A stretch of 64,000 nt of DNA. Origin: Azolla caroliniana (taxonomy: Eukaryota; Plantae; Polypodiophyta). Each line of letters opens with the position of its first letter. The stretch's first letter is position 1. Where the stretch lies: contig JBHGNT010000003.1 of the NCBI GenBank assembly GCA_043228905.1, positions 7,378,001-7,442,000 on the forward strand, read 5' to 3'. Below the pieces are notes generated by a model. It had not been told where the DNA came from. It did no database searches and worked only from the letters and a program-made list of their open reading frames with translations. Both the position numbers and the translations under genes were made by a program. Below are positions 27,736 to 62,853 of the stretch, one piece after another.

Positions 27736-27805
27736 TTCTCTGTGCTGCTAGACAACAACTACCCATATATACCTAATCTAGATTAACCTCTCAGCTCTGA
27801 TACCA

Positions 27806-36095: not shown

Positions 36096-37923
36096 AGATT
36101 AAACTAGATCATCATTAAACTCTTAGCCGATGGGGTTCGCTTATTTGTGAAAGACTCCTTGCACCTAGATACCCTCACTTGCCAAATTGTAAGGCCGACC
36201 ACTAATAACCAAATGTCCACATACCGTTGTCGTGTGTAGAACGAACCTCCTTTTGCTTAAGGTTGTACAGTTCCATGCTCCACCTTTAAAGAACTTGGAC
36301 TATTTCCATTCCATCAATGAAACCACATAGCTGATTCAGTAGCCAACCAAATAGTTGTTACGCTTGATACATGAACATCAACCCCGCACTGAGCCAGGAT
36401 TCTTAAGCTCCTCGTCCAAACTTCTTGGGCTCACGGGCAACTACACAAACAATGTGCAATGTCCTCCGAACTCGCTCCACATGCCTTGAAATTACTCAGG
36501 CCACCCCTTTTCCCAAGCCACTCTCTGGTTGGAACCGCCTAATGGGTGATTAACCAAAAAGACACTTTGACCCTCTCGAGGAGGGATGAGTTCCATATGC
36601 TGTTCCTGGTTCTATCCACGAAGACCGAATCGATAGCTACATGGGCCCATTTATTGGCGCACTTGTCATGATGCAAGCATAACTTTCTCCCCAAGTGTGT
36701 CGAGTACTCGAAGAAACCTATTGATTTATTTTGTTCTCCCCTCCACTTATATTCTGCAAGATCCCATTCTAAACACTAGAGTGGATTACCTTCAACCACG
36801 TACAAGATCCAATTCTCCTCAACCTCATCGACTAGTGGATTCACCTTCCATTTCTTACCATCTCGTGGCACAATTCTATCGGGTACCAACTTGCAACTTT
36901 ATCTATTGATCCCAACTGAATGATCGTCTCGTTCTTTCCTAGACCCTTGGCATTGATAATTTATCATGTATCATCACATTGTTTGGACCATTCACCCTCT
37001 TCCCCATTATTGATAGGAACAAAGTATACAACTGTATTTACTAGGTCAAGCATCTTCTTGCCATTTTTGAACTTTCCCAAGTCATCATATAATTTCTCAC
37101 GATTACTGGCGGATAGTTGCATCCAATTTTCCATTGAATGAATCTTTGCATAGTACAATATAGCCCACGGCATACCCTTGCTCCATCCAAGCATCTTTCC
37201 CTTTGTCGACGTTAAGGTCTCGTTCCATAGTAGGGGTTGGTGCATCCATTCAACATTAGTACTTGGACCTATCCGACTTAGATGCCCACAGAGCGTACTC
37301 CACACCTTCATCACTGACATACATGTGCGATCAACCAACCGATTAGATTTCCTTTGCTTTAAGTCCATACAAAATAGCCATGATTTATGTGGCTTCTAAT
37401 GCCCACCAAGTCGCGGACTCCAGAGGATGCTCCTATTATGAATCAACATTTTCCATAACTCATTTCCGGGCAGCAAGCTCCTTACTAATACCATGCATAG
37501 CAATGGCTAACTCTGCAATGCAAGGTCAATAAATCCTAAACCCCAATTACTTTTGGGAAGAATCAACGTAGACCATGACACTGTAGTTGCCGCGTTGTCT
37601 TTCTTGTTCCCCGCCCATAAGAATCCCCTGATACACACCTTAACAGTATGAATAGCATGTCTGTCAAATCAATGGAGCATCTTGAACAAGTTCCATAAGC
37701 TCCCATTTTATCAGGGAGCTCTTTTACAATGTTTACAACCCCTTAGTCTCGTTTTTAGATGTAAGGTATCGGATACACTCTTCTGCCCCGTTATAAAACG
37801 TCTTCAAGGACGAGCTTTCTTCCCTTTCATCTTCCAAATCAGGCTCTAAGTCAAAAGAACATCCGGTCTCTACTCTACCTGAGTTGTTATTGATGAGGAC
37901 CATATGTGCTCTACTCCAACCGT

Positions 37924-38553
37924 TGTCGTGAAGAAAACCGGCCCGAAGAGGAATCAAGGAATTAAAGGCGTGAACTTGCCCTTGCACGAGTGTGCACGAA
38001 TTGATACATTGTACATAACTAGGAATAGGACGGCTAATGTAAATATACTAGGTGTAACATATTTATTAATTAGGGAATCGATGCGTATCTCTGTTCAAAG
38101 GGACAGAGAATAATGTTGACATGTTTTGATGTAACGGCCTCCTCGGTGACCTATAAAAGGGAAGGGGAATAGGAGAAGGGTATTACATTTTGGGGAGGGA
38201 AGAAGGAGGTGCTATTGGACTGGAAACTGAGCTCTCTCTTCCTCTATCATCATTCTCTGCAGGGTTGCAACCGTTGTAATTGCGATTGTTATTGTAATAG
38301 AATCTCTTGTTTCCGCCGATCCGTGTTATATGTGTTCAGGAAGTCTCTTCTTTCATCTCTCTTGAGTGTGCTCTTTGATTGAGTCGGTATATGCGTTGGT
38401 GGTCCAATCAGCCCGTAAGTGTCGCCGGTTGCTGATAGGTCTAGTAGCCCTCGCACTGTCGCGCTCCTCACTTCCTCTTGTCTCTCTTGCTCCTCGGTTC
38501 AGGGCCCCCATAGTCCCGCCTTATTTCACACATGCATGCGTAATAACGCGACA
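37924..38553 (+). repeat. Gypsy-A 5' LTR
   Basis: Direct repeat of 44222-44853. TATA-like ctataaaag near 38151. Confidence 0.95.
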
Positions 38554-38557
38554 TATT

Positions 38558-38574
38558 TGGTGAACCCGACGTGA
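38558..38574 (+). promoter_or_regulatory. Primer-binding site complementary to the tRNA-Trp 3' end
   Basis: TGGTGAACCCGACGTGA, complement of ...UCACGUCGGGUUCACCA (tRNA-Trp, from memory). Identical copy at 56024-56040. Confidence 0.8.
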
Positions 38575-38598
38575 AACCAGGTGGCAGAGGAGTCGAAG

Positions 38599-41500
38599 AT
38601 GAGGGGATCGGAGCTCGCCGAAGCCATGGCAGCAGCAGTCGATCGGATAGTAAGTGCTTGCGAGGGCACAAGTGCCCTCGACAGGGCCATTGAAGAAATT
38701 GTCGGCACAATAGGCCGATTCGGTGGGAAAGATGCCACGAGCTATTTGGTGGCCTACCGGGCCGAGACGGTGATGAGAGACATTCCGGAGAATAGGCGTA
38801 TGTCCGGGTTCCCTCGGCTGGCGACACCAGCCATCCACGTAGAGGTGCTTGAGGTACAGGCTGGATGCCGGACCCGGGGAGAATTTGAAGCACGTCTTCT
38901 CGAGAGGTACGGGCTTGATGACACGCTTCGGTTATCGAGGCGGGACTTCATGGAGTGGGTGGAAACCCCCGGGAAGGGGAGGAATGCATCTGCGCTCCTC
39001 CAGGAGTTCGAAGAACGCTTCACACGGCTCTCAACGCTGAACAGGACCGTGCTGGACACGAGCTGTGTCCTGTTGTTTGTTAAATCGGTGGACGTGCGGG
39101 ATAGGGGCCAGGTGGGTCTCCTGTTGGAGGCAGATGATGGGCTGACGACCGTCTGGGCTGTGGTCAAAGGGGTCTACAACCGCTTCGACAAACAGCGAGA
39201 CTGGGGAGAAGTCGTCGGTGACGGGACCCACCCCGGCAAGGAAGTTTGACGAGCCTTCGCCGGCACGAAGGGAGGAAACCCGGGATTGGATTGAAACTGG
39301 CCGAACGTCGACCGGAGCGGTCAAGGGCCCATCCAGGGGAGCGGCTCTTGAGGAGCTGACACAAATGGTGCGCGACCTGCAGATAGCGCAAGACCAAACA
39401 GATAGTGGAGGGCAGCCACGCGACCGAAGGCCACCAGCTGGACAACGGTGTATGTGGTGCGACACGGTCGGGCATAACCGGCGAGACTGCGTGGATTTTG
39501 CTGAAGCCCTCAGGGGTACTGTGGTGTAACTATGGAATGGATGGGTGCACGCCGGTGATACTCGGAGAGCCATGGAGACAAATTTTGGGCGTGGCAGGAT
39601 GAAGCGGCTAACGGAAGAAGTGGAAGCGCACCATACGGAGGCAGTCCATTATTCGGCATCGGCCAAAATCCGGGTGGGAGGTGACGAAAACCAGAAAACG
39701 AAGGACTCTGGCTTCTAGCCCTCGGTGCTAGAAGGCCTCTCTGGCGCATGACTGAAGAAGGAGAAAGCGAGTCGCTCAGAGTAGCGGGTCCAAGGGGTCA
39801 CTGGATGGGACGATCCGGTTGAGGAGAAGATCGGTCTCGTGGAAGCCGTGTGCTAGAACTATGAGGTTCTGGTAAAAGACAAGTGCGGTATGAGACCCGG
39901 TTCGGGCAGAAGCAAAACGATGCCGGCAACCTCGGCGCACCGGACAAAACGAAGCGGGCTGGTTACCGGTTGAGCATGGAGATCAAGAGATGAACGGACC
40001 TGCGGAAGGTCCTCGAAGAACGGATCCTCGACAGCAAGGTGGAGCTGTCGCTAAGGGAGGTTCTTGGGATCGCCAAGAAGGAGTTCCACGATTCCATCGT
40101 GGACTTGGTGAAGTGGAAACGGCTGTCGATGGAGCCGGAACCAGAGAAGCCCATGGAGGTGCGAATCACGCACCTAGAGGACATGGCCCTGGATGACGAG
40201 TTGGCGGAAAGCCACTATTCGAGGTCGCACTGGGCCAGGGCCACTACGGAGACCCTTGTTCAGATCCGGGATGTCCAAGAGCCTGTGGTGGCATTGATAG
40301 ACCATGGCTCGGAGATCAACCTGATGTCCATGGACTTCTATAGAAAGGGGAAGTGGCCGATCAACACCAAGCAGGGCTGGAAAATACGTGCGACGACCCA
40401 TGCTACGGAGGAGCTAGACGGTGCTTGCCTGAATGTACGCGTCAAGATCGGCGACGTCGAGATCGATCAACACTTTTTCATGCAGGAGACGTCCTCGCAC
40501 CCGATGATACTCGGCGCGCCATACATTCCACCGACGCGTATGGAGACAAGGGTGTTGGATAACGGTTCGGCATATGCGCGCGTAAAGAGCCAAGATGGAC
40601 TGCACTCCGTCCAATTCCTGATCGTACGACCGAACCATGAGCGGAACTGAGAAACCCTCGGCACCGGCGAATGAGGGGATTTTTAGAGAGGGCTATCAAG
40701 GTGTGGGGCCACGATAGTCCGAACACCCCGGAGGATCCCCACACATGTACCATAGGTAGGAAATTTTGGTTGTCCAATAACGGAGGTTGTAATATAGCCA
40801 TCATTAGCGGCCGGGAGAAGAAGCGGGTAGAGAAACGACTCAGGACATGCGGAATCCTCGACCCCGATGAGGAAATTAGTGGCGCCGTGGAGGCGCTCTC
40901 TTTTGATGACACCCTTGGGGAAATCGGGAAGATGATCGAAGAAGGCCTCAGTGAAGAGCGGATGATTCCGGTTAACTCGGTGGGAATGTACGAAGTCATC
41001 GCCGACTTCAGAGAAAGGGTCAGGTCGGACCGAACGACCTGCGTGCATACAAGGTACAAGACTGTGGACCGGAAGGTGCGGCCAGTCGCGGCACCCTTGC
41101 CGGAAGCCAGTGAGGAACGAATAAAGGGGGTCGCGTGGGACCCAAGTTTGCGGAATCCGGCCGGCATAGGACACGGGTTCACCAACATAACGTTACGGGA
41201 GCTCAAGGTCGGTGGGGCTGGCTTCCTACTGCCGGCGGAGGAGGAGAGGTTTCAGAGAATGATCGGAAGGCACGGGAAGGCCTTCGCGTTCACGCCGGGG
41301 GAGATCGGGTTCGTGGACCCAACGATCGTGGAACCAATGGTGATTTTCACAGTACTGCATGTTTCGTGGAATCTCAAGCCAATTCCGGTACCTAGAGCTC
41401 ACATCCCGGAGTTGGTGAAGCTGCTGAAACGGAAGGTGGAAATGGGCATCCTCTAGCCATCGAGTGCGCCATATTCAAACCGGTGGTTTATGGTGCCAAA

Positions 41501-44147
41501 GAAGAACGACATGTTGTGCTTCATTCAGGACTTGCAACTGGTCAATAAATTGACTATTCGAAATGCAGGTATCGGGCCGACCATGGACAAGTTTGAAGAG
41601 GCCTTCGCCGGAAGGTCGATCTATTCAGTCGGGGATCTATACTCGGGGTACGACAGTTCCAACTAGCCATGGAGAGCAGGGATATTACGACGATGCGGAC
41701 TCCTCTCAGCCTAGTGCGGATGTGTACCTTGCCGCAAGGAGGGACCAACTCGGTGGCACACATGGTGAACACTATGAACAAAGTGCTAAGGGACTGCATC
41801 CCAGACATAACCATGCTGTTTTTGGACGACATACTGATAAAGGGATGTCCGGTGGAAGAGAAGGATGAGTCGGTTGCACCGGACGGTTGCCGGAGGTTTG
41901 TTGTGGACCACATCAAAGACTGCGAGAAAGTGCTACAAAGGCTTGAGAACGCGCGACTCACCTTCTCCAAAGAGAAGTCATCTTTCGGCCAGTCGGAGAT
42001 CCTAGTAGTCGGGCACTTGTACGGGCCTTACGGCCGGAAACCGTCTCCGACGAAGGTGGAGGCCATCTCCATGATGAAGGATGAATGCAGGTCGGTTACA
42101 GAGGTCTGAAGGTTCTTGGGGGTGTGTGCGTTCTATCACATCTGGGTTCCGCACTATGCACGCGTCGCAGAACCACTATACGGGTTGCTGAAAAAGGGGC
42201 GTAAGTTCGAATGGGGCAAGGAGCATACTGAGTCGATCCGGACACTAATGGAGGCGCTTACTGCGGCACCGACTCTCCGGAAAGCGGTTTACGGCAAGGA
42301 GGTCCCAATCTACATAACCGTAGATACGAGCCCGACCGGGATAGAATGGGTGGTCAATCAGGAGGACACGAGTGGCACGTTGTTCCCGATCCGGTTCGGG
42401 GCGAAGGTTCTCAGTGAGCGACAACGAGGATATGCCCAAGTTAAGTGCGAACTGTGGGGTATTGTTTCGGCAATCAAGGCCGACAAGGACTATCTAATCG
42501 GGACAGAAGTAATAATCGAGACAGACTGCCTACCGATTCTCGGTATGGTTTCCGGATGCGCGACTCCGAACCTGGCAATGCTCAGGTGGATTGCGTACAT
42601 CAATTCTCTAAATCTGGAGATACGACACATCTCCGATAAAGACAACACCATGGCCAATATGCTTTCAAGAGTACGGTTTGACGACGAAGACGACATGGTT
42701 TCGGAGAATGAAGAGATTGGCAAGGACTTCTTCGAGTCGGCTCACATAGCGGCGAGGGTTGGGAGCACTTCGGTGCTTAACGAGTTTGATGAGAGCAAGT
42801 ACAAAGGAGAGTGGCTCCAGATCGGTGGGTTCCTGAAGACGATGACGCCGGGAGTAGCGTGGACAAGGGAAGAGGCTAACCGGATCAGGAAGAAAGCGTA
42901 CCGATTCTTCCTGCGAGACAAAAGCATATGGAAGCACCCGAAGAAGCAAAATAGAGTCCCGCTCCGGGTGGTGGCAAGGAAGGAGGAGCAGGAAGCATTG
43001 CTAATGGCGTACCACGAGAGTCCTTGGGTCAGGCACCAAGGGACATGGGCCACGTTCGAGAAGCTGAAGGAGAAGTACTGGTGGTCGGGATTATACCGGG
43101 ACATGCATTGGTTCGTAACAACTTGCAAAAGCTGTCAGATGCATTCCATAGTCCGACATCGGGACGAGCTGCACCCGATTTACCCGTCGACCGTCCACTT
43201 CAAGTGGATGGTGGATCTGGTGGCGATACCGATGGGGGTAGGGCAGATGCGGTACCTGGTGCATTCACGAGAAGATCTGAAGAACCAGGTGGAGGGTTGA
43301 GCATTACTGAACAAAACGATCGCGGTCGTATGCCGGTTCCTAATTGAGGAGGTGGTGTGTCGGTACGGGTGCGTAGGAAAGATCGTATCGAACCGCGGGG
43401 AACTGGATGCACATGAGGCCGAAGAGCTGTTTGGACGGTTAGGGGTTAAACTCTCGCTCACTATGGCGTATAATCCGGAGGCAAACTGGAAGGTGGAACG
43501 CTGACACGGTCCGATCGTAAAGGCGTTGGTACGAGCCTACAGAGGCCAGGTCGGGAATTGGCCATGGCTCCTACCCTAGGCCCTATGGGCAGACCGAACG
43601 ACGCATAGTTCGGGGAGCGGGTACATGTCGGTGGAGCTGATGTATGGGCAGAAACCGGTCATGCTGGTGGAACGAACGATTTCCTCGTGGGCAGTGATAG
43701 ATTGGAGGAACGAGGTGAGCGGGAAGAGTTGTTGGCATTGCGGATTCGACAGTTGGAGTGAAGACCGGAGGACGTGGAGAGGGCAAAGACAAAGCTACAA
43801 ACGATGAGGAGAGGAACAAAGGTCGGTTCGACCGAACACACCGGCTACGGCCAAAGAAGATTGAGGATGGCGACTAGGTGTTGGTGTACGACAGCAGCCT
43901 CGACAACCAGCACAAGGCAACGCGTAAATTCATGAGGAGGTGGTTTGGACCCTACGCCGTAATGAGTGCGAATGACAATAGGACATATCATCTTGCGGAG
44001 CTCGACGGGATGCGATTAACAGTGCTGGTAGCTAGGAAACGGGTCAAGGCGTTCAAGAAGCGGCATGAGGACGAGCCAGATATGGGAAGCGTGACCGACG
44101 ACGACGACCGGTTCAGAGCAGACGAGAATTCGGGAAGTGACGGATGA
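38599..44147 (+). pseudogene. Gypsy-A gag-protease and pol, fragmented
   Basis: CMWCDTVGHNRRDC, ALIDHGSEIN, LPQGGTNS, FLDD, TVDTSPTG, ETDCLP, HESPW..H..C..C, WFGPY. Confidence 0.93.
40677..40744 (+). promoter_or_regulatory. Putative -1 ribosomal frameshift signal (G_GAU_UUU plus pseudoknot)
   Basis: The gag frame ends GAT TTT TAG and pol continues in -1 (GGA TTT TTA GAG). Stems 40690-40697/40713-40720 and 40701-40708/40737-40744. Confidence 0.72.
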
Positions 44148-44221
44148 TTACGGGCCGATCTTGTTTGGCAATTTTTAGTGTCTAGCACATATCGGTGGAT
44201 GTGTGGTTTGGTGGGGGTGGA

Positions 44222-44853
44222 TGTCGTGAAGAAAACCAGCCCGAAGAGGAATCAAGGAATTAAGGGCGTGAACCCGCCCTTGCACGAGTGTGCGCGAATG
44301 GATACATTGTACATATAACTAAGAATACGAAGGCTGATGTAAATATACTAGGTGTAACATATTTATTAATTAGGAAATCGATGTGTATCTCTGTCCGAAG
44401 GGACAGAGAATAATGTTGACATGTTTTGATGTAACGGCCTCCTTGGCGACCTATAAAAGGGAAGGGGAATAGGAGAAGGGTATTATGTTTTGGGGAGGGA
44501 AGGAGGAGGTGCTATCGGACTGGGAACTGAGCTCTCTCTTCCTCTGTCATCATTCTCTACGGGGTTGGAACCGTTGTAATTGCCACTGTTATTGTTATAG
44601 AATCTCTTGTTTTCGTCAATCCGTGTTATATGTGTTCAGGGAGTCTCTTCTTTCATCTCTCTCGAGTGTGCTCTTTGATTGAGTCGGTATACGCGTTGGT
44701 GGTCCAATCAGCCGGTAAGTGTCGCCGGCTGCTGATAGGTCTAGCAGGCCTCGCACTGTCGCGCTCCTCACTTCCTCTTGTCTCTCTTGCTCCTCGGTTC
44801 AGGGCCCCTGCAGTCCCGCCTTATTTCACACACACACGCATAGTAACGCGACA
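44222..44853 (+). repeat. Gypsy-A 3' LTR
   Basis: Direct repeat of 37924-38553. Confidence 0.95.
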
Positions 44854-47217
44854 CCGTGAACTCTGACCTTGGGATACCAATGTTCACCGCGACCTTGGGT
44901 ACCTACATAACTTGCGTCCTCCATTCTTTCAACATAACAACCTCAACTCCCACAATCGAGGGATTTCCTTCCTCAATCCGTGCTATAATTTCTACAATTC
45001 ACTATTCCCAATGTCTGCTTTACTTTCCTTGCCCTTCCCTCTCCTGATCCACGCTTTAACCATTCTCAACTTTGATGAAAATCTATGCCCCGGCCTTCGG
45101 ATGGCTCTACAAGTGTTTTGTGCGTCTTAACTCTTGGAAGTAATTCGATTGGATTTGTTAAAATTTTCTCGCATCCTTGGGTCTCCTCTTCCATTTGTGA
45201 GAAGATATCAAATATGTTCGAAGTGGAACCACCACTTGTAGGTGGACCATTAAGACCATAAATGTCAGGCATGCCCACTTTCCTTAGTGATACCCATCCT
45301 TCTTCCCCAACTACTTGCTTCCCATCATGAACCAGGATCATCTGGCCTCCCATCATGAACCAGGATCATTTGGCCTCCCATCATTGACTTTGGGTTATCT
45401 GGCAAGTTGATGCCCGGATTTCCCCTACCTTCTCTTTTCTTCCAATACAGAGGTCAGAGTTGGGCCATATGGCCCATCTCCTTACATGCAAAGCACTAAC
45501 CTGGCAAGACTTCCCACTTCAACTTGCCTATACTTCTTCTAACAACCTTCGATTCTTTGCCGGAGAAAGATAAAGGTCGATTCCTTTTCTTTCAACAATT
45601 GCCCTCCTCCTTCGGCTTCTCTTGGACTAAACCAATGCCATTATCCTCCTTTTCCATCATGACATTGTCCATGACTTCCTTGGTATTTGTTTCGGCATGT
45701 GCTGTGTTCGGCTCCCCGCTTATCTGCTTCTGATCCTTCAGGTTCGGATGCATACTTGTACCTACTATGTCCATTGGAGGGTTTGGATACATACCTATTC
45801 CTACTATGTCCACTGGAGGAAGCTTGGCCATTTCCCATCTCCAAAAGATTGTCGCCTCTTTCATTGATTTGGGCTTGCAACATGAACATTTGACGCCTTC
45901 CTAACATTCTGCCTCCTGTTGTTGAAGACCTATCACATGCCTTCACTGTTAGTCTTGTTCTCAAGTGTGCGATTCGATGAGAGGTTTGTTGTCGTAGGGG
46001 AAGAGAAGGCCATTGAGGACTATGGAAGGAAGCTTTTCCTTTCGTGGGAACTCCTTCATCCACTTTCCACATCATCCCCCTCCTGCATCAACATAAGGTT
46101 CTTGTGTTTGGTCTCAAGGGAAAAAGATTTTTGAATTGCACATATTATCACACAGTAGTCTCCATAGCAGCCTCGGTGGCAACTGCATGAGATTAGGAGT
46201 TTTGTTCTTTAGAAAAACAAGGCCTTACAAAGGAAGCTCCACCTTTAAAAAAAGGATTTTGAAGAAGCAAAAAAAATCCTAACTCATTTGCTAATTCCTA
46301 CAAACTTTGATTGGCAACATCATCAACTTTTCTTCCATGGTTAGTACCTCAATTGTTGCACTCTATATTTCACATTTATGCTTGAATTTTAGAAACATCA
46401 AAACATTCCTTAAAAGGTGTCATGTGATTTCGTGTTGGCTCCACTATTACAACACATGTTCCATACATCGGATCTCTCAAAATTAACAAATTCATATTTT
46501 AGTAATACTATTACAAATGGAAGTCATTATGACAATTTTGGTAGACAATCCCACATTTAAACATATAGATAATGTCTGGTCAAATTTTAAGATAAAATAT
46601 GAAGCCAAGAAACATAAAACATGGAATAAGATTAGATATTTAAAGTCAATTTTCAATTTAAATGAATAAATATTAACTTGTCCAATCATTCTAATAAATT
46701 ACAATATACCATTATATCTAGGAATAAAAAAAGTATGCTTAATGGTTAATGGAACGTATATTCAATATTCTAGTTGATGACCTTCAATCATTTTGGAGCC
46801 AGAACGATGTCATTGATGCATGTACACAAAAAGGAAAACAAGATTTAAACCTTTGTGAAATGTTTGCACGAACTACTTATAACTACCTTGGATGTGGGTC
46901 TTTTTGAGGTCTAGGGACAAAAGGCTCAAAAGCTTGCCCTCTTTTTTAGTATTAAAAACATCTGAAGATTACAAGTTGAAGTTATCTGCCCAAAGGCTTA
47001 CAACGTAGAATAAAAGACATTGTATGTACACCAAAACCTGTACATACAAAAACAACTTATAAAGGGGTGATGAACCTTGATATGATACATTGCCATGATG
47101 TACTAATAATCAAGGAAGGGTCCATGGAAGTTGATAGTTTCAAGAAAGCTTGCCCATTGTGTGGTAATTGGTTGAGATCAACCTATTGTAAAGTCTTAAA
47201 GAAGTTTGTGTGTATAA

Positions 47218-47712
47218 GAATGTTTTTTACCTAAACCCCCCACAAACTAAATCCCATGCACATAATTTTGATTGGAAAATCAAGAGAGAAAGAGATTGGC
47301 TCAACAAAGCTTGCAAGAGTGGGAAAAGAAGTGACAAATTGGATGTCCAATTGATACAAATGTAGATATTTTATATAATGGCGGTGATCGATACATCCAA
47401 AAAGAGAAGATGTAACCTATTATGTCCATATGCTTATATTAGAATATTGGAAGGATCTAAAGGAATGTCATTGTTTTTCACCAAAACACCCTACAAACTA
47501 AATCCCATGCACATAATTTTGATTAAAAAATCAAGAGAGAAATAGATTGACTCAAGAAAGCTTGCAACATTGAAAAAAGAAGGGACAAATTGGATGTCTA
47601 ATTTATACGAATGCAAATATTCTATATAATGGTGGTGATTGATGCATCGAAAAAGAGAGGATGTAACCTACTGTGTCCATATGCTTATATTTGAATATTG
47701 GAAGGATCTAAA
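47218..47712. repeat. Tandem duplication, 2 x ~250 bp
   Basis: acaaactaaatcccatgcacataattttgatt ... gaatattggaaggatctaaag occurs twice. Confidence 0.9.
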
Positions 47713-48369
47713 GAAATATAATTTATTATATATAATGCATATAATTATGAATGTAGATCACTTGCTTTGAAGACCTCTTGAGGTTTTCAAAGACACTCCT
47801 ACAGCAAGAGCATCTTAGAATATTGTGATTTGAAAAGATACCTCTAACCTTCAAGGAACCATGATAGGGGTACACTTAAATCTCAACAAACTCCTACATC
47901 AAGAGCATTCTACGCTAGATTTCAGGTGTTAAAACTTATGGAATTATATTTATTAAATCTCAAGATAAGATGAATTCAAACACAAACAAGACATGATGTT
48001 TCATTGTGAAGCTATTTTACAATAGATAACATGGCTCTCTCAAGACTAAAATGATAGTTACATAAATTTATTGAGGCAATATTGATTCAACTTAAATTTA
48101 AATTAATGGCTACTCAAAATTAATAAACAATGTGCTAACAACAAAATATTGCTTATGTAATATAGCATGTGTTTTCCCTTAGCCATAAACAAATTCAACA
48201 TGAGATATGTAAGATCATATATCATATATCTCTTGGGGTCATTGGCCACATCGATTTCCTAGATGCAAATATATTTTGTGTGAAATATCACAAACAAAGA
48301 AGTTAGATTGAGTTTGTATGTTTAATGGCGAAATAATGGACTATATATTTCTTTGATATTCAAGTGGTG

Positions 48370-49139
48370 TTAGCTATGGGCCCGGTTTTGCCCCAAACCG
48401 AACCAAACCATTAAGTCATGGTTTAATAGTTTATGGGATCCAAAACAAATTTAATGGTTTGGTTTGGATTGGATTATTGATAAACGGTTCGATTTTAGTT
48501 CAGTTTGGTTCTAAAACTCAACTATATCGTTAAACCAAAACTATTTAAACCGAACCATTAGGTAAAAATCCAATTGCGGTTTCATGGTTCGGTCAAGATT
48601 CAATTCAATTTTAACATTTTTCATTATTTCAAATTTTAATTTTTGAAAATTTTAAAGATTTTTCCTAAAATGTGAGATTGAAATTAAAATTTAAAATAAA
48701 TTAAAAACCATTAAACAGTTAAATTGTTTAAATCACAGTTTCAAACATTAAAACCGAATTGAACTGAACCATTTTTTAAAACTTGAACTTGAACCGAACC
48801 GAACTGTTTAAACCGTTAAGCCCTTAAGCTAAAATTTCACATTTTGGATCGGTTCAATTGTTAGTTTTAGGTTAACTTTTTTTCCTTTAATGGTTTAATT
48901 AAAGTTTTTTTATTGATTTAATATATTTAAATTAAATTCTTATTTAATATAATGTGTTTTTGTTTATTTATTTATTTAATTAATTTGACGTAAATGGTTG
49001 CGTTTAAATTTTTTATTAAATGGTTCGATTTGTTTTCAACTTTTCTCTAAATTGTTTTGGTTTAAATGGCTTGAGAGTGCATAAATGGTTTGGTTTGGTT
49101 TCAAGGCAAAGAATCAAACCGAACGGGGCCCATTGCCAA
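48370..49139. mobile_element. Probable MITE or non-autonomous DNA transposon with AAACCG/CGGTTT repeats
   Basis: Imperfect TIRs ttagctatgggccc / gggcccattgccaa. Many aaaccgaacc / ggttcggttt motifs in both orientations. No TSD recognised. Confidence 0.6.
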
Positions 49140-49458
49140 ATGTCGTTAATACTTAATGGATGTTTTAGGGGGTGGATCTATGTGCATGTTGAAGAGGTTT
49201 TGGCGTCAAAAAATCATGGTGAAAAGGATCAATAATGGAGGGATGTGATGTACTATCTTTCCAAGTGTTTCCCTAATATACACGAAGATGCACCTCTTAT
49301 ATGATGCATGACTAGGCAAGCCCAATGTTTGTGAAAGCAGCTTGTGGCAAAGGGGCATCATTTTGATTTTCACACAAGGAATAACATAATGCATTAGCAT
49401 TGATTATAAAAAGTTATAATGCATGGAAACTATGGAGAATCAAACTCAACTTCCCTAG

Positions 49459-49920: not shown

Positions 49921-49924
49921 TTCT

Positions 49925-52431: not shown

Positions 52432-55096
52432 ATTGGGATCGGTTTGAGGTTCCACGGTACATGCGGTACCATGAAGATCACCATTGGTTCTACCATCGTT
52501 GGGTCTACGCACCCGATTTCCTCCGGCAAGAATGCGAAGGCCTTTCCGTGCTCCCTGAGCATTCTCCGAAACCGGTCCTCCTCCGCCGTCAGTAGAAAGC
52601 CACCCCCACCTATCTTGAGCTCTCGTAGCGTTATGTCGGTGAACCGGTGCCCTCTCGTAAACTCGGGTCGGACGCGACCCCTTTCATCTGTAACTCGTTG
52701 CCCTCCGACAAGGGTGTCGTGACTGGCCTCACCTTCCGGTCCACAGTCTTGTACTTTATATCCACTCGGGCCGTCCGATCCGACTCGAGTTCTCTACTGA
52801 TGTCGGCAATGACTTCGTACATCTTTTCCGAACATACCGGAATCGTCTGGTCTTCACTAAGGCCTTCTCCGAACACCTCCCGTAGCTTCCCCAAGGTGTC
52901 ATCGAAAGAGACCGCCTCCACGGCTCCGTTAATTTCCTCTCCGGGGCCAAGGACTCCGCATGCCCTGAGTCACTCTTCTGCCCGCTTCTTCTCCGGGGCC
53001 AACGACACCGGTTATTATACAACCTCCGTTGTTGGAGAACCAAAACTTCCTACCTATGTTATAGGTTCTTCTGCCTACCGTACATGTGTGGGGTTTTTCC
53101 AGAGTGTCCGGACTATTGCGTCCCCACGCCTTGATATCCCTCTCTAAAAATCCCCTCGGCTTTCGCTACCGAGGGTCTCTTGGTTCCGTTCATGGTTCGG
53201 TCGTACTGTCAAAAACTGGAAGGAGTGACGCCCATCCTAGCTCTTGACTCGCGCGTACGCCGAACCGTTGTCCAACACCTTCGTCTCCATTCATGCCATT
53301 GTGATGTACGGTTTCCCGAGTATCACCGGATGTGAGGATGTCTCCTGCACAAAGAAGTGTTGATCGATCTCGACATCACCGATTTTCACTCGTACATTCG
53401 GGCAGGCTCCGTGTAGCTCCTCCATGGTGCGCGTCGCCGTTCGTATTTTCCACCCGTGCTTGGTGTTGATCGGCCACTTGCCCTTCGTGTAAAAGTCCAT
53501 GAACATCAAGTTGATTTCCGAACCGTGGTTTACCAACGCCACCACCGGCTCCTGGACATCTCCGATCTTAACAGGGGTCTCCATAGTGGCCCTAGCCCAA
53601 TGTAGGCTCGAGTAGTGGCTTTCTGCCAACTCGTCTTCCAGGGCCATGTCTTCTAGGTGCGTCATTCGCACATCCACCGGCTTCTCCGGCTCCGTCGAAA
53701 GCCTTAAATCTGCTTCACGAAGTCTATGATGGAGTCGTGGAACTCCTTCTAGGCAATACCAAGCACCTCCCTCAGCGACAACTCCATTTTGCTGTCAAGG
53801 ATCCGTTCCTCTAGGACCTTTCGTAGGTCGGTGGTCCTTTCAATCTCTGTGCTCAACCGGTAACCGGCCTTCTTAGCCTTGTCCAGTGCGTCGGATGCAC
53901 CAACATCATTCTGCTTCGGCCCGAATCGGGTCTCATACCGTTATGAGAGTCCAGCCCCCCCGATCTTTCCCGTGCACTTGTCTTCCACTAGAACCTTGTA
54001 GTTCTGGCACGCGGCTTCCACGAAGCCCGTCTTCTCTTCAACCGGGTCACTCCACCCGGTTACCTCCCAGACCCGTCTTTCCGCGTGATTCCCTTCCTCT
54101 TTCCTTAACCGTACACTAGCTAGGCCTTATAGCACCAACGGCTAGAACCCGGAGTCCTTTGTTTTCCGAACTTCGTCACTCCTGACCCAGATTCCTGCCG
54201 ACGCCGAGTAGTGGATGGTCTCCGCGTGACGAGCCACTGCTTCCTCCATCAGCTGTTTCATCCCCCCTCGTCCGACGTTCAAGCCAGGGCCCTCCGGGTT
54301 TCGCTAGCGTGTACCCGCTTGTTCCATAGGTACACCATGTTGGCCCTTATCGCTTGGGCGAAGTCCCCGCAGTCCTTTCGGGCGTGGCCAACTGCGTCGC
54401 ACGACAAGCACCGATGCCCAATCGGATGCCTTCGGTCGAGGACTAGTTCGCCGCCATCGCTCCGTGCCTGTGCAATCTGGAGGTTCCTCACCATCTGAGT
54501 TAGCTCCTCCAGATGAGCGTTTGGCCACGCCCATCGAAGTCGACCAGGCCTCGAGCCAGTGTCGGGTCTCCTCCCTTCACGCCGATGGGGGTACCTCGAG
54601 CTTCCTTGCCGCAACAGAGCACGCCCCCGACGAGCCTTTATCGACCCACTCCCGCCATTTGTCGAAACGGCCGCAGACTGTCTTCACCACGACCCAGTCG
54701 GCCGTTAGCCCGTTGTCATGAAGAAAACCGGCCATAGGCGGATTCGGGCAAAAAGGCGCATGAACCGGCTCTTACACGGATAGATGCATGACTTGATATT
54801 TTGATATTGATTCATAAATGGATCAACTGATGTAAATACTAAGTATTGCACATTTATTAGGAGGGATTGTGCGTATCTCTGTCAGAAGGGACAGGGAATA
54901 AAGCAATTTGACTAGGGAAAAGGGCACCCCTTTTTTTGGGAACTATTTAAGGAGAGGAGAGAAGGAAGAGAAGGGGGATTGCGTGTTAAGGAGGAGGAAG
55001 TGCTGCAGGACCGAGGGCGGAACTCTCTGTCCTCCTCCGATCGTCATTCTCTGTGGGAGCGGGGAGTTCGACGCCTCTGCTTTGTGGGTAGCCCGT

Positions 55097-55741
55097 TGTC
55101 GTGAAGAAAACCGTCCCTTAGCGCAATCGGTGCATAGCGCGCGTGAACCGGCTCTTCACGCGTGCGCGCCCTTTAATGTATATAATAAAGAATTAGGTAC
55201 AAAGGTATATCCGAGGTAGTTAGATTCGGTAGGTAGGAAGTTAATGAGGGAAACGGCTCCCTTCTTGAAGCTATAAAAGAGAGGGAGACAAGGGGAGACA
55301 AGGGGCATTGGGGAGGACAAAGTGCTGTCGGACCGAAACCGAACGCTTCTCCTCTGTTCATTCTCCATCGCTCTTCTCTGCAAGTTTTCGGGAGGCTCAC
55401 GTTGCTTCGAGGAACGCCCGTGTGCTTTCGGCAGCACCTCCATCCTATCCCGTTCGTGCGCAGACGAGCAGGCATCGGCATCTGTTCGCCGACCTATTCG
55501 GTTGTAACCGCTCGCGTGCTCTGTTGTTTTTTTGTCATTCGTTAATATACAAACATTCGTGTCTCTCTGTCTCTGTGTCCATTCGTGTCTTCCGCGTTGA
55601 CGGGCCGTGTCCCTGTGTTCCTTTGCTCATACGTAACCGAGTGTCTCTCTCTTTCTCTTTCCCCTTCTATCACCTACTCTTCGGTTCAAGACCCCGATGG
55701 TCCCGCCTCATTTTTCCACGCATGCGCGTAGTAACGCGACA
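55097..55741 (+). mobile_element. Solo LTR of a third subfamily, nested in the Gypsy-B 5' LTR
   Basis: Termini tgtcgtgaagaaaaccg...gtaacgcgaca. TSD CCGT at 55093-55096 and 55742-55745. The empty site is visible in the 3' LTR (ggtagcccatgcgctg, 62091-62106). Confidence 0.93.
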
Positions 55742-56064
55742 CCGTGCGCTGCCAGCAGAGGCTTTTCCTTCGACATTTCTCTGGGTCTAGTGTGTTCCGT
55801 ATGTGTGCGTGAGTAGGGTCCCCGTGTTGGGCCCATCGCTGCCTTGCCGATTGTAACCGTCGTAGTTTGTAATCTCTTGTTATTGTAATCAAGCGTTCCG
55901 TTTATATCTCTCCTGCTCGCTTCTGCGTGTCTGTGAATCTCTCTCTCTCTCTCTCGCTCCTCGGTCCAAGACTCCCGTGGTCCCGCCCCTTCTATGTGCA
56001 CGCGCGTAACAACGCGACATATTTGGTGAACCCGACGTGAAACGGGCGACAAAGGAGTCGAAAG

Positions 56065-59000
56065 ATGAGTTGATCGGAGCTAACAGAGGCAATGGCGGTA
56101 GCCGTCGACCGGCTGGTAAGCGCTCGTGAGGGAACGGGTACGCTCGACAGAGCCATTGAATCGATCGTCGGCTCTATAGGCCGGTTCAAAGGGAAAGACG
56201 CCACAAGTTATTTGGAGGCTTATCGGGCCAAAATGATCATGAGGGATATCTTGGTAGACAAGCGGTTGTCCGGATTCCCTCGGGTGGTGACGTCGGGCAT
56301 CCACGCGGAGGTGCTTGAGGTGCTGGCTGGATGCTAGACTTGGGAGGAGTTCGAGCTGCAGCTCCTTGAGAAGTACAGGTTTGACGACTCACTTTGGCTG
56401 TCGAGGCGGGACTTCATGGCGTGGGTGGAAAGCCCCGGAAAAGAGAGGAACACGTCGGTGCTCCTCTAGGAGTTCGAAAAATAGTTCGCGCGGCTACCGG
56501 CGCTGGACCGGACGGTGCTCGAAACGAGTTGAGTACTACTGTTTGTCAGTTCGGTGGACGCGCTCGACAGGGAAAAGGTGGGTCCCCTATTGGAAACGAA
56601 CGAAGGGCTCACGACAGACTGGGCCGTGGTAAAACGGGTCTGCAGTCGTTTCGACAAATGGCGCGATTGGAACGACGGAAGCTCGTCGGGGTCAGGGCCG
56701 GTCCCGGGGAAGAGGCTCGAGGAGCCGATATCGGTGCCGGCCGATAGGAAGGAAGAGACCCGAATCTGGCCAGAGTTGGGGTCGGCATCGAACGACGTGG
56801 TCAGAGGCCCATATGAAGGAGCGGCTCTGGAGGAGCTGACACAGATGGTGCGCGACCTGCAAATCGCACAGGCCCGGAGAGACAACGACGAACAACCTCG
56901 CGACCGGAGGCCGCCAGCTGGGCAGCGATGCATGTGGTGTGATGTGATCGGTCACATTTGGAAGGATTGCACGGATTTCGCCGGCGCACTCAGGACCAAC
57001 GTGGTGTACCTCTGGAATGGGTGGGTGCACACGAGCAAGACCCGGAGAGCCCTAGAACTGAATACGGGGCGCGGCGGAATGAAGAAGTTAATGGAAGAGG
57101 CCGCGGCACGGCATGTAGAAGCCGTTAACTACTCAGTCTCGGCGGGAATTCGGGTAGGAGGTGAGCATACCCAGAAGGCGGAGGACTCCGGATTCTGGCC
57201 GCTAGTGCTAGAAGGCCTCTCCGGAGTTCGGTTGAAGAAGGAAGAGGCGGACCGCGTGGAACAGCGGGTCCAGGAGGTCACCGGATGGGACGATCCGGTC
57301 GAAGAGAAAACGGGCTTTGTAGAAGCCGCTTGCCAAAACTACGAGGTTCTAGTGGAAGACAAACGGGCAAGAAAAGCCGGAGGGGTCGGTCCCCCGCAGA
57401 GGTATGAGACTCGGTTCGGATCGACACCGACCGGTGCCGGCAACCCAAGCGCGGCGGACGGAAAAAAGCAGGCGGGGTTTCGGTTGAGCACCGAAATCGA
57501 AAGGACCACAGACCTGCGAAAGGTCCTGGAGGAACGTATCCTCAACAGTAAAGTGGAGTTGTCGTTGCGGGAGGTGCTGGGAATCGCCAAGAGGGAGTTC
57601 CACGACTCCATCGTAGACCTGGTGAAGCGGAAGAGGCTCTCAACGGATCCAAAACCAGAGAAGCCGGTGGAGGTGCGGACTACGCACTTAGAAGACGTGG
57701 CCCTAGAAGACGACTTGGTGGAAAGCCACTACGTGAAGCCGCATTGGGCCAGGGCAACTACGGAAACCCCTATGCGGATCGGCGACGTTCCGGAACCGGT
57801 GGTGGCCTTGGTAGACCATGGATCCGAAATCAACCTTATGTCCATGGATTTCTACAAGAGGGCTAAATGGCCGATCAACACCAAGCATGGGTGGAAGATA
57901 CGTGCGGCGACGCGTGCTACGGAGGAGCTACATGGCGCGTGCCCGAATATATGCGTAAAGGTCGGTGACGTCGAGATATATCAACATTTCTTCGCGCAGG
58001 AAACATCCTCGCACCCGGTGATTCTCGGCGAACCATACATTACGGCAGCACGCATGGAGACGAAGGTGCTGGAAAACGGTTCGGCGTATGCACGAGTCAA
58101 GAGCCAGGACGGTCGGCATTCCGTCCAATTCATGACCGTATGTTCGAACCATGAGAGGAATCGCGAGACCCTTAGCGGCGACAACCGAGGGGATTTTCAG
58201 AGAGGGCTATCAAGGCGTGGGGCCGCGGTAGTACGGACATACCGGAAGAACCCCACACATGTACAGTAGGTAGGAAGTTTTGGTTTTCTGAAAACGGAGG
58301 TTGTACTATAGCCAGCGTCAGCGGTTGAGAAAGGAAGCGAGCGGAGGAGCGGCTCAGGGATGCAGAGTTCTCTCCCCCGACGAAGAGATCAATCGCGCCA
58401 TGGAGGCGGTCTCTTTTGACAACACCTTGGGCGAGCTGTGAAAGGTGACTAGTGAAAACCTTAGAGAAGACCGGACCATTCCGGTTAGTTCGATGGGAAT
58501 GTACAAAGTCATCGCGAACTTCCGAGAAAGGATCGGGTCGGATCAGACGGCCCGCGTGGATACAAAGTACAAGACTGTGGACCGAAAGGTGAGGCCAGTC
58601 GCGGCACCCTTGCCGGAGGGCAGCGAGGAGCGGATAAAAGGGGTCGCGTCGGACCCAAGTTTACGGAATCCGGCTAGCATAGGGCACCGGTTCACCAACA
58701 TAACGCTACAGGAGCTCAAGGTTGGTGGGGGTGGCTTCCTACTGCCAGCGGAGGAGGACAGGTTTCGGAGAATGCTCGGAAGGCATGGGAAAGCCTTCGC
58801 GTTCTCACCGGAGGAGATCGGGTGCGTGGACCCGACGAGCGTCGAACCGATGGTGATCTTCATGGTACCACATGTACCGTGGAATCTCAAACTGATTCTG
58901 GTGCCCAGAGCTCACATCCCGAAGTTGATGGAGCTTATGAAGCAGAAGGTGGAGATGGGCATCCTCGAACCGTCGAGTGCCCCGTATTCGAATCGGTGGT

Positions 59001-61648
59001 TTACGGTGCCGAAGAAGAACGGCACACTACGCTTCATTCAGGACCTCCAACCGGTCAACAGGGTGACCATCCGTAATGCAGGAATCAGACCGACCATAGA
59101 CGAGTTCGCGGAGGCCTTCGCTGGAAGATCGATCTATTCGGTCGGTGACGTATACTCGGGGTACGACCAGTTCCAGCTAACCGTAAAGAGCAGGGATATC
59201 ACGACAATGCAAACTCCTCTCGGCCTGGTACGAATGTGTACCCTACCACAAGGAGAGACAAATTCGGTGGCGCATATGGTGAACGCAATGAACAAGGTGC
59301 TTAGGGACTGCATCCTGGACATCACCATGCCATTCTTGGACGACATCTCGATAAACGGGTGTCCGGTGGAAGATGCAAATGAGAATGTCGGGACAGACGG
59401 ATGCCGGAGGTTCGAAAACGCCCGACTGCGAGAAGGTGCTACAGAGGCTCGAAAACACACGACTCACCTTCTCCGGAGAAAAGTCGGCGTTCGGGCAGTC
59501 AGAGATCCTACTGGTCGGACACTTGTGCGGGCCTTACGGTAGGAAACCGTCTCCGGCAAAGGTAGAGGCCATCTCCACGATTAGGAACGATTGCAGGTCG
59601 GTTACGGAGGTCCGCAGATTCTTGGGTTTCTACCACATCTGGATCCCGCACTACGCACATGTCGCAGAACCCCTCTACAGACTATTGAAAAAGGGGCGTA
59701 GCTTTGAGTGGAGGACGGAGCACAGAGTCAGTACGGAGACTAAAGGAGGCGCTTAGGGTAGCACCGGCTCTCCGAAAAGCGGTTTACGGCAAGGATGTCC
59801 CCATTTGCGTGATGGTGGACACGAGCCCGACCGAGATTGGGTGGGTAATCAGTTAGGAGTACAAGGACAGTGTACGGTTCCCGATCCGGTTCGGGGCGAA
59901 GGTATTGAGCGAGCAGCAGTGAGGATACACCCAAGTTAAGCGCGAGCTTTGGGGTATCATTTCGGCAGTCAAGGCCGACAAGGACTATCTGATCGAGACG
60001 GAGGTGATCATCGAGACGGACTGCCTGCCGATACTCGGCATGGTTTCCGGATGCGCGACGCCGGACCTAGCAATGCTCCGGTGGATAGCGTACGTTAAGT
60101 CCCTGAACCCGGAGATACGACACATATCCGAAAAAGATAATGTCATGGCCGACATGCTTTCGAGAGCGAGGTTCAACGACGAAGATGACATGGTTTCGGA
60201 TGACGAAGAAGTCGGTGAGGACTTCTTCGGGTCGGCTAACGTAACGACGAGGAAAGGGGACACTCCGGCACTTAACAAATTTGACGAAAGCAGGTACGAC
60301 GTGGAGTGGCTCCAAATTGGGAGGTTCCTACGGGCAATGACGCCGGATGCAGCATGGACGAGAGAAGAGGCAAGCCGGGTACGGAAGAAGGCGTACCGAT
60401 TCTTCCTGCGGGACGGGTGTATATGGAGGCACCCAAAGAAGAAAAACGGCATTCCGCTCCGAGTAGTGGCAAGGAAAGAAGAACAAGGGGGACTACTGGC
60501 GGCATTTCACGAGAGTCCCTGGGCCGGGCACCGCGAAACGTGGGCCACATTCGAGAAGTTGAAGGAGAAATATTGGTGGTCGGGACTGTACCGGGACGTG
60601 CATCGGTTCGTAACAACTTGCGAAAGCTGTCCAATGCACTCCGTGGTCCGACATCGGGACGAGCTACACCCGACCTACCCGCCTACGGTCCATTTCAAGT
60701 GGGTGGTAGACTTGGTGACGATGCCGATGGGAGTAGGACAGATGTGATACCTGGTGCTTGCGCGAGAAGACTTAACAAACCAGGAGGAAGGTCGTGCATT
60801 GCAGAACAAGACAACCGCGGCGGTATGTCGGTTCCTGATCGAAGAGGTAGTGTCGGTACGGGTGCGTCGGGAGGATCATGGCGGACCGGTGAGAGCTAGA
60901 TGCGAGGGAGGCTGAGGAGCTATTCGACCGGCTAGGGGTCAAACTCTCCCTCACTACGGCATACAATCCGAAGGCGAACGGAAAGGTAGAACGTGGGCAT
61001 GGGCCGATCGTAAAGGCGTTGGTGCGTGCATGCGGAGGGCAGGTCGGGAATTGGCCAAGACTCCTTCCTTACGCACTATGGGCGGACCGAACTACACACA
61101 GTTCGGTAACAGGGTTTATGCCGGCTGAGCTTATGTATGGATAGAAGCCGATCATGTCGGTGGAACAGACGGTTTCTTCGTGGGCGGCGGTAGATTGGAA
61201 GGACGAGATGAGCCGGGAGGAGTTGCTGGCGGCGTGGATTCGGCAACTCGAGCGGAGGCCGGAGGACATGAAACGGGCAAAGGAGAAGCTGCGGGCGGCA
61301 AGGGAACGGAACAAGACCCGGTTCAACCAGATGCACCGGTTGCAACCAAAGAAGATCGAGGAAGGCGACTGGGTCTTGGTGTACGACAGCAACCTCGACA
61401 ATCAGCACAAGGCGGTGCGAATGTTCGCGAGGAGATGGTTCGGGCCCTACACGGTGACGAGCGCAAACAACAACGACATGTACCACCTCGCGGAACTTGA
61501 CGGGACACGACTACCAGTACCGGTGGCCGGGAAGCGGATCAAAGCGTTCAAGAAGCGGTTCGAGGACGAGCCGGACCCAGAGGGCGCGGAGGAGAGCGAC
61601 GATGACGATCAGTTCGGGCCCGGCAAAGAATCGGAGAACGCCGACTGA
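56065..61648 (+). pseudogene. Gypsy-B gag-protease and pol, fragmented
   Basis: 571-aa gag-PR ORF (CMWCDVIGHIWKDC, ALVDHGSEIN), RT PFLDD, RNase H, integrase HESPWAGH..CESC, WFGPY, acidic tail. Confidence 0.93.
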
Positions 61649-61717
61649 AGCCGGTTTTCTTCGGTATCAACCCGTCTCTGGCGCATGCCGGTGGATGCGC
61701 AGTATGGTGCGGGCGGA

Positions 61718-62374
61718 TGTTGTGAAGAAAACCGGCCATAGGCGGATTCGGGCAAAAAGGCGCATGAACCGGCTCTTACACGGATGGATGCATGACTTGA
61801 TATTTTGATATTGATTCATAAATGGATCAACTGATTTAAATACTAAGTAGTGCACATTTATTAGGAGGGATTGTGTGTATCTCTGTCAGAAGGGACAGGG
61901 AATAAAGCGATTTGACTAGGGAAAAGGGCATCCCTTTTTTTGGGAACTATTTAAAGAGAGGAGAGAACGAAGAGAAGGGGGATCGCACGTTAAGGAGGAG
62001 GAAGTGCTGCAGGATCGAGGGCGGAACTCTCTCTCCTCCTCCGACCGTCATTCTCTATGGGAGCGGGGAGTTCGACGCCTCTGCTTCGTGGGTAGCCCAT
62101 GCGCTGCCAGCAGAGGCTTTTCCTTCTACATTTCTCTAGGTCCAGTGTGTTCCATCTGTGTGCGTGAGTAGGGTCCCCGTGTTGGGCCCATCGTCGCCTT
62201 GCCGATTGTAACCGTTGAAGTTTGTAATCTCTTGTTATTGTAATCAAGTGTTCCATTTATATCTCTCCTTCTCGCTTCTGCGTGTCTTTGAATCTCTCTC
62301 TCTCTCTCTCGCTCCTCGGTCCAAGACCCCCGTGGTCCCGCCCCTTCTACGCGCACGCGCGTAACAACGCAACA
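61718..62374 (+). repeat. Gypsy-B 3' LTR
   Basis: Matches 54714-55096 plus 55746-56019. Confidence 0.95.
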
Positions 62375-62853
62375 CCGTCATCGGTCTCCAGCAGGAGGCC
62401 CACTTGCTCCCTGTCTCTCACGTCCACCAATTTAACAAATAAAAGGACACGACTTGTGTCCAGTATGGTCCGGTCCAACATCGAAAGACGCGCGAAGCGT
62501 TCTTCAAACTCCCGGAGGAGCACCGACGCATTTCTCCCCTTTTCGGGGGTCTCCACCCATTCCATGAAGTTCCGCTTCAATAGCTGAAGCGCGTCATCAA
62601 GCCCATATTTCTCAAGAAGCCGACCTTCAAACTCTTCCCAGGTCCGGATCTTAGCTCGTACCTCGAGCAACTCCGCATGGATGCCCGACATCGCCACCCG
62701 AGGGAATCGGGCTAGTCACCTATCTTCCTGAATGTCCCTCATCACCAGTTCGGCTCGGTAGGCCTCCACGTAGCTTGTGGCGTCCTTTCTACTGAACCGG
62801 CCTATCGTGCTGACGATTGCTTCAATAGCCCTGTCGAGGGCGCCTGTGCCTTC

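What the first reader, a model, noticed from the sequence alone, without database searches (positions are those of the whole stretch)
37920..62378. Ty3/Gypsy lineage appears to integrate specifically into CCGT, in a fixed orientation
Seen: three independent insertions (Gypsy-A 37924-44853, Gypsy-B 54714-62374, solo LTR 55097-55741) are each flanked by the same 4-bp duplication CCGT, on the same strand relative to the element. The targets are unrelated: a LINE, a gag gene and an LTR. CCGT is not part of the LTR, because internal junctions read aca|tatt and gga|tgt, and both checkable empty sites have a single copy (62097-62100 as ccat; restored LLETDDGLT). The three LTRs share only their termini, so the preference spans diverged subfamilies. 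Two sites share tagcCCGT. Under uniform base composition, three identical oriented 4-mers have probability about (1/256)^2. Known: most plant Gypsy make 5-bp TSDs with weak preference, and sequence-preferring insect errantiviruses use near-palindromic targets. Inference: the integrase ends in GPY/F plus an acidic tail with no chromodomain, and may read an asymmetric motif. CCGT contains both a CG and a CHG site, so it could steer insertions into methylated, TE-rich DNA.
Basis: partly seen in the sequence, partly recalled or inferred. Interest (0 to 1): 0.85.

Follow-up and report, generated by a model that had tools for sequence, protein, structure and literature searches.

The report
Known CG-targeting Phygy-type retrotransposons
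Three related jumping genes in this window did each land on CCGT, but relatives elsewhere landed on ACGT, ACGG, TCGT and GCGT as well, so this is likely the already published preference of the Phygy lineage for four-letter sites with CG in the middle, not a new one-way CCGT rule.

Summary
In detail: two full elements (37924-44853, 54714-62374) and a solo LTR (55097-55741) are each flanked by a CCGT duplication. Nine independent outer junctions of related LTRs from metagenome contigs read CCGT x2, ACGG x2, ACGT x2, TCGT, GCGT, ATGC: 8 of 9 are NCGN, only 2 of 9 are CCGT, and its reverse complement is as common, so neither CCGT exclusivity nor fixed orientation holds. Sequencing-run contigs gave 11 and 13 more flanks ending in CGT without the first C. 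A 4-bp NCGN duplication is the published mark of the Phygy lineage (Neumann 2019), and these elements fit it: no chromodomain, no extra RNase H, Physcomitrium homologues; no tree against reference Phygy was possible. With the observed base bias, three identical sites have a 3-6% chance, not 1.5e-5. What may be new is small: all 12 sites have A first or T last (40% of background NCGN), hinting at a CGT half-site read in either direction, and the integrase has an invariant Glu at a known target-contact position.

The parts
37920..37923 (+). Left TSD copy of element A (CCGT)
37924..38553 (+). Element A 5' LTR, 630 bp, 92.7% identical to its 3' LTR
38558..38574 (+). Element A primer-binding site; assignment to tRNA-Trp is recalled, not shown by a call
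   Evidence: tests found no tRNA gene to compare
38575..44147 (+). Element A gag-PR-RT-RH-INT, broken by stops and frameshifts; no chromodomain, no extra RNase H
44222..44853 (+). Element A 3' LTR, 632 bp, preceded by a G-rich tract ending GGA
44854..44857 (+). Right TSD copy of element A (CCGT); the target is a LINE remnant
52435..54709 (-). Older minus-strand element of the same group (gag end to RT start), the host of B; on its own strand the target reads ACGG
54710..54713 (+). Left TSD copy of element B (CCGT)
54714..56019 (+). Element B 5' LTR (657 bp without the nested solo LTR), 94.5% identical to its 3' LTR
55093..55096 (+). Left TSD copy of the solo LTR (CCGT)
55097..55741 (+). Solo LTR, 645 bp, third subfamily, nested in B's 5' LTR
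55742..55745 (+). Right TSD copy of the solo LTR (CCGT)
56024..56040 (+). Element B primer-binding site, same sequence as in A
56041..61648 (+). Element B gag (DUF4100)-PR-RT-RH-INT, broken; integrase ends in WFGPY plus acidic tail
61718..62374 (+). Element B 3' LTR, 657 bp; holds the empty solo-LTR site as CCAT at 62097-62100
62375..62378 (+). Right TSD copy of element B (CCGT)
62379..62853 (-). 5' part of the host element's gag, running to the assembly gap (62854-62953)

Best explanation
These are three diverged subfamilies of a non-chromoviral Ty3/gypsy group, likely of the Phygy lineage, whose integrase makes 4-bp duplications centred on CG in either orientation, and three CCGT sites in one window are likely a chance draw from that biased set. 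Shown: 4-bp duplications, CG centre, both orientations, and a bias to A first / T last. Inferred: the symmetric intasome cuts with a 4-bp stagger and has to kink the target at the central step. CG is a flexible pyrimidine-purine step, as in the 4-bp retroviral intasomes, and base contacts would narrow the choice from any YR to CG and favour A/T at the edges. Inferred consequence: because CpG is several times denser in these elements than in AT-rich spacers, the rule would passively steer insertions into other transposons without a chromodomain.
For: Independent junctions: 8 of 9 NCGN, against a 4.3% background in the window (p about 1e-10) and 6 of 59 in chance-match control loci. The ninth, ATGC, is one CpG-type transition from ACGC. 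CCGT 2 and ACGG 2 of 9; no orientation bias (4 v 3, p=1.0; with the window 7 v 3, p=0.34). Run contigs laid on the solo-LTR start: 11 (X1, of 292 laid) and 13 (X2, of 194 laid) diverge just before CGT with heterogeneous flanks whose majority last letter is A. Three identical sites have p=0.03-0.06 under the fitted symmetric bias. Published Phygy profile: 186 elements, 4 bp (100%) NCGN, tRNA-Trp 81%, no extra domain (PMC6317226 text passage and Additional file 5). Ten Physcomitrium patens proteins match gag-PR and the start of pol, best E 6e-106 by tblastn. Central YR preference of 4-bp intasomes: PMC4422553 passages. CpG density.
Against: Only 9 independent junctions, all single-sided, from short-read contigs of three assemblies; in two (L060, L064) the two flanks of one LTR differ, so they are not verified duplications. 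Those LTRs are about 67-86% like the window's and may come from another species. P(three times CCGT specifically) is still only 0.002-0.005, and CCGT/ACGG together are over-represented (4 of 9 against 10% of NCGN, p=0.009). One search hid 27 rows, so the CCGT share in the runs is unknown, and X1 may be the window's own sample. Elements A (6930 bp) and B (7012 bp without the solo LTR) are shorter than the published Phygy range (7656-9968 bp). No tree with reference Phygy sequences could be built.
Confidence: 0.8

Rival explanations
1. The integrase reads one asymmetric half-site, CGT, which may lie on either strand, so targets are NCGT or ACGN and the palindromic average ACGT is a mixture. This refines the best explanation rather than replacing it.
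For: All 9 independent sites and all 3 window sites have A first or T last, against 40% of background NCGN (0.4^9 = 2.6e-4). The full palindrome ACGT is only 2 of 12, below the roughly 34% expected if both edges were independent. Precedent: a non-palindromic motif in both orientations for retroviruses (bioRxiv 10.1101/034991, abstract read).
Against: The ACGT deficit is not significant (p=0.17). The pattern was noticed after seeing the data, one of the nine (ATGC) is counted as a decayed ACGC, and one search suggests ACGT flanks are common.
Confidence: 0.3
2. One reading: this lineage integrates specifically into CCGT in a fixed orientation, at least in this host.
For: 3 of 3 window sites are CCGT across three subfamilies; CCGT is also 2 of 9 elsewhere; p of three CCGT under the symmetric model is 0.002-0.005.
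Against: 7 of 9 independent junctions are not CCGT and 2 are its reverse complement; p of at most 2 CCGT in 9 is 3e-6 for a 90% rule and 0.025 for a 60% rule. In runs that hold this DNA, 11 and 13 contigs have CGT without the first C.
Confidence: 0.04
3. The integrase selects methylated CG, reading 5-methylcytosine or the DNA shape it causes, and so actively targets silenced DNA.
For: Indirect only. The elements carry the mark of CG/CHG methylation after insertion: 31 of 38 transitions between A's LTRs and 23 of 27 between B's are in CG or CHG context. All 3 window targets lie in other transposons. The residue aligned with foamy-virus Ala188 is Glu in 118 of 118 integrases where the motif was found.
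Against: Sequence cannot show methylation at the time of insertion. CpG density alone explains the nesting. Ala188 contacts bases three places outside the joining points (PMC4422553), not the central CG, and those flank positions show no strong bias in 15 half-sites.
Confidence: 0.1
4. Artefact: CCGT belongs to the LTR ends, or the three sites are not independent insertions.
For: Two sites share TAGC upstream.
Against: Internal junctions lack CCGT; empty sites hold one copy; the targets are unrelated sequences; other flanks differ.
Confidence: 0.01

Closest known systems
Phygy clade, non-chromovirus Ty3/gypsy (Neumann et al. 2019, PMC6317226; passages and Additional file 5 read; Additional files 1 and 3 too large to read)
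   Same: 4-bp duplication matching NCGN, no extra polyprotein domain, coding region spanning nearly the whole internal part, homologues in Physcomitrium patens, PBS that I recall as tRNA-Trp.
   Different: About 7.0 kb against 7.7-10.0 kb; Physcomitrium proteins are clearly diverged (mostly 30-65% per segment), so these are other families, likely in another seed-free plant. The A-first/T-last bias is not stated in the passages I could read.
TatI clade (same paper, Additional file 5)
   Same: 4-bp duplication and tRNA-Trp primer.
   Different: TatI carries an extra archaeal-type RNase H (100%) and is about 9.1 kb; none is found here, and no CG motif is given for TatI.
Drosophila errantiviruses of the ZAM/Tirant group (PMC5408687, passages read)
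   Same: Sequence-biased target containing CG (CGCG).
   Different: Insect elements with AGT...AnT ends and a palindromic target; here TG...CA ends and a degenerate N-CG-N site.
Prototype foamy virus intasome (PMC4422553, passages read; PDB matches)
   Same: 4-bp stagger and a central pyrimidine-purine step; with Ty3, the only solved integrase matched (E 5e-20 for P0001).
   Different: Any YR is accepted and T first / A last are disfavoured among the 4-bp viruses; here the centre is nearly always CG with A first / T last, and Glu replaces Ala188.

Membership tests
Phygy | Ty3/gypsy order GAG-PR-RT-RH-INT filling the internal region | tested here: met
Phygy | 4-bp target-site duplication | tested here: met
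   3 of 3 two-sided in the window; empty sites checked for 2 of 3
Phygy | Duplication matches NCGN | tested here: met
   3 of 3 in the window, 8 of 9 single-sided junctions elsewhere
Phygy | Dominant PBS tRNA-Trp | tested here: inconclusive
   PBS seen at 38558 and 56024; the Trp assignment is recalled; no tRNA gene in the window or in L072 to compare
Phygy | No chromodomain and no extra RNase H | tested here: met
   No such Pfam family or in the 120 listed hits of each; median 75 residues from the GPY motif to the end in 83 relatives, one outlier of 194
Phygy | Groups with reference Phygy in RT/RH/INT phylogeny | not testable with these tools
   Reference FASTA too large to read. Indirect: homology to 10 P. 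patens proteins; that those are Phygy is inferred
Phygy | Length 7656-9968 bp (observed range; the authors call size of low value for classification) | tested here: not met
   6930 bp (A) and 7012 bp (B without the solo LTR); this is why membership is given as likely, not settled
TatI | Extra archaeal-type RNase H domain | tested here: not met
Chromovirus (Tcn1, Galadriel and others) | Chromodomain at the integrase C-terminus | tested here: not met

The most novel reading that the evidence does not exclude
Phygy-type integrases across mosses, liverworts and ferns are near-obligate CpG-reading enzymes that recognise one CGT half-site in either orientation, with an invariant Glu at the Ala188/Ser119 position, and use this (possibly as methyl-CG) instead of a chromodomain to insert into transposon DNA. 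That would be sequence-encoded heterochromatin targeting and a tractable sequence-selective plant integrase.
Probability: 0.2. Interest if true: 0.55.

Novelty: new member of a known kind. Interest (0 to 1): 0.2.

Why it matters
As found, it matters little: it likely extends a published rule (Phygy, NCGN) to further families and hints at a sharper motif (A first or T last). If the half-site or methyl-CG reading held up, it would explain how a chromodomain-less plant retrotransposon avoids genes and would offer one of few plant LTR integrases with real sequence selectivity. I found no mechanistic study of the Phygy rule in the searches (listings seen; most subscription papers are not held).

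Tried and rejected
No genome is held for this window, so the genome-wide logo could not be made. Viral contigs: 59 matches to the 16-base LTR start, none similar to the window by blastn, used only as a chance control; protein scans found no relative. GTDB contigs: no LTR match; 3 internal fragments without usable junctions. Dropped before counting junctions: L063 and L065 5' and L067 3' (internal PPT/PBS junctions), L066 (same flank as L064); L061, L062, L065, L066, L068 gave no LTR end. The depth profile cannot be split into base frequencies and was not used. Flank positions -6 to -1 pooled over 15 half-sites show no clear bias, and TAGC does not recur. The paralogous LINE does not cover A's site. 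The PBS could not be tied to a tRNA gene. The inverted-tRNA-for-PPT design noted elsewhere in this genome is absent here: the tract before the 3' LTR is G-rich and ends GGA. No structure was predicted (an alignment was made and not used), since a model without DNA would not decide the question. Passages of PMC6911290, PMC7466625, PMC12885004 and PMC11899658 added no per-site Phygy data; PMC6911290 reports GC-rich centres with AT-rich surroundings for pooled 4-bp duplications, and PMC12885004 reports Phygy in a liverwort. Additional file 1 of PMC6317226, which lists each element's duplication and may already show the A/T edge bias, could not be read.

Full report
Observation. Element A (37924-44853), element B (54714-62374) and a solo LTR nested in B's 5' LTR (55097-55741) each begin TGTC(G/A)TGAAGAAAACC, end in CGC(G/A)ACA and carry CCGT on both sides. 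Internal junctions are ACA|TATTTGG and GGA|TGT, so CCGT is target DNA. B's 3' LTR has the empty solo-LTR site once, as CCAT. Contigs from public runs join across that site with one copy (4 in X1, 1 in X3, 1 in X5, none in X2) and run from 54713 straight into B's host (10 in X1, 9 in X3, one sample). A's empty site could not be checked. LTR pairs are 92.7% (A) and 94.5% (B) identical. The three subfamilies' LTRs are 71-75% identical over aligned columns and homologous in their interiors, not only at the termini; A and B align at 76% over 6.0 kb. Three copia elements in the same window have different 5-bp duplications without CG (GATAT, TGTTC, AGATT), so the CG pattern belongs to this lineage and not to the region.

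What the elements are. Both full elements encode broken gag (DUF4100)-protease-RT-RNase H-integrase. Named relatives come from Riccia sorocarpa, R. fluitans, Adiantum nelumboides and Physcomitrium patens; most hits are unnamed metagenome proteins. Ten P. patens proteins match gag-PR and the start of pol. No chromodomain and no extra RNase H family appears or among the 120 listed hits, and the integrase ends a median 75 residues after its GPY motif in 83 relatives. The PBS is TGGTGAACCCGACGTGA, which I recall as plant tRNA-Trp; I could not confirm this by a call. Neumann et al. 2019 (PMC6317226) state that Phygy elements alone among plant lineages have an insertion preference, for NCGN (passage), and list Phygy as 186 elements, 4 bp (100%) NCGN, tRNA-Trp 81%, no extra domain, 7656-9968 bp (Additional file 5). 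The elements here fit except for length (6930 and 7012 bp). No tree with reference Phygy was possible, so membership is likely, not proven.

Test of the CCGT rule. No genome is held, so I sought junctions elsewhere. A 24-base LTR-start pattern found 9 metagenome contigs, all similar to the window's LTRs. Two were internal PPT junctions and two shared one flank, leaving six 5' flanks: TCGT, CCGT, ACGG, CCGT, ACGT, ACGT. Three outer 3' flanks were GCGT, ACGG, ATGC; one further LTR end was an internal PBS junction. So 8 of 9 are NCGN (background 4.3%, p about 1e-10; 6 of 59 in chance-match loci), but only 2 of 9 are CCGT and 2 are its reverse complement. First base A 5 and C 2 mirrors last base T 6 and G 2; the orientation test gives p=1.0 on these nine and 0.34 with the window added. 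Independently, contigs of two runs that hold this DNA were laid on the solo-LTR start: 11 of 292 laid (X1) and 13 of 194 (X2) match through CGT and then diverge into unrelated flanks, the majority letter before CGT being A. Limits: these junctions are single-sided; L060 and L064 have unlike flanks on the two sides of one LTR and are probably chimeric; the host species of the contigs is unknown; one search hid 27 rows and is biased to flanks ending in CGT; X1 may be the window's source.

Chance. (1/256)^2 rejects random targeting, which is right. Given NCGN, three identical sites have p=0.004-0.005; given the observed edge bias, 0.03-0.06; three CCGT in particular, 0.002-0.005. With 264 windows of this genome already noted in the scan, one such triple is unremarkable. 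A 90% CCGT rule would give at most 2 of 9 with p=3e-6.

Mechanism. Shown: 4-bp stagger, CG centre, both orientations. Inferred from retroviral intasomes: a 4-bp stagger needs a sharp kink at the central step, and flexible pyrimidine-purine steps are selected there (PMC4422553, passages); CG is such a step, and base contacts would have to narrow YR to CG. The residue aligned with foamy-virus Ala188 is Glu in 118 of 118 relatives where the motif was found. It is a candidate for target contact, but Ala188 touches bases outside the duplication, where 15 half-sites show no clear bias. CpG is 56-89 per kb in these elements and 11-20 per kb in the AT-rich spacers, so the rule alone would favour nesting. 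LTR differences are mostly CG/CHG transitions (31 of 38 in A, 23 of 27 in B), consistent with methylation after insertion; this says nothing about methylation at target choice.

What may be new. All 12 sites have A first or T last, against 40% of background NCGN (p=2.6e-4 on the nine, noticed after the fact), and CCGT/ACGG are over-represented (4 of 9, p=0.009). This would fit a CGT half-site read on either strand, as proposed for retroviruses (bioRxiv 10.1101/034991, abstract), but the expected shortage of ACGT is not significant (p=0.17), and the unread Additional file 1 of PMC6317226 may already show the bias.

Verdict. Real feature, known rule: likely Phygy-lineage elements with a CG-centred 4-bp target, not a one-way CCGT-specific integrase. 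Interest 0.2.

Noticed in passing
window 10125-15075, 22985-28366, 31308-36095: Three copia elements with ordinary, different 5-bp duplications (GATAT, TGTTC, AGATT); the first sits inside a tandem repeat of roughly 130 bp.
   Followed up: partly
window 49943-52431: A fourth, degenerate plus-strand fragment of the same Gypsy group (gag end to RT) with no LTR of the family's type found beside it; it abuts the minus-strand host element at about 52431-52435.
   Followed up: no
window 15400-19400 and 36092-37919 / 44858-46100: Two LINE-like copies, 74-82% identical where they align; one is split by element A and also by the copia at 31308-36095.
   Followed up: partly
P0001-P0360, integrase core: The residue three places after the second catalytic Asp is Glu in 118 of 118 sequences where the motif was found (D-R-G-E in 105); foamy virus has Ala and Ty3 Val there.
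   Followed up: partly
L069, L070, L071: Contigs in three bacterial genome assemblies encode relatives of this retrotransposon polyprotein (54%, 57%, 32% identity); likely eukaryotic contamination of those assemblies.
   Followed up: no
window 29770-30750: AT-rich array of diverged 114-150-bp units with inverted arms, resembling a foldback or satellite-like element.
   Followed up: no
window 62954-64000: After the 100-N gap the sequence is unrelated to the Gypsy host; it holds an ORF to 63613 followed by what looks by eye like the start of a LINE endonuclease.
   Followed up: no
window 766-1260, minus strand: Alpha/beta hydrolase coding stretch, the only host-like gene signal among the 24 window ORFs scanned.
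   Followed up: no
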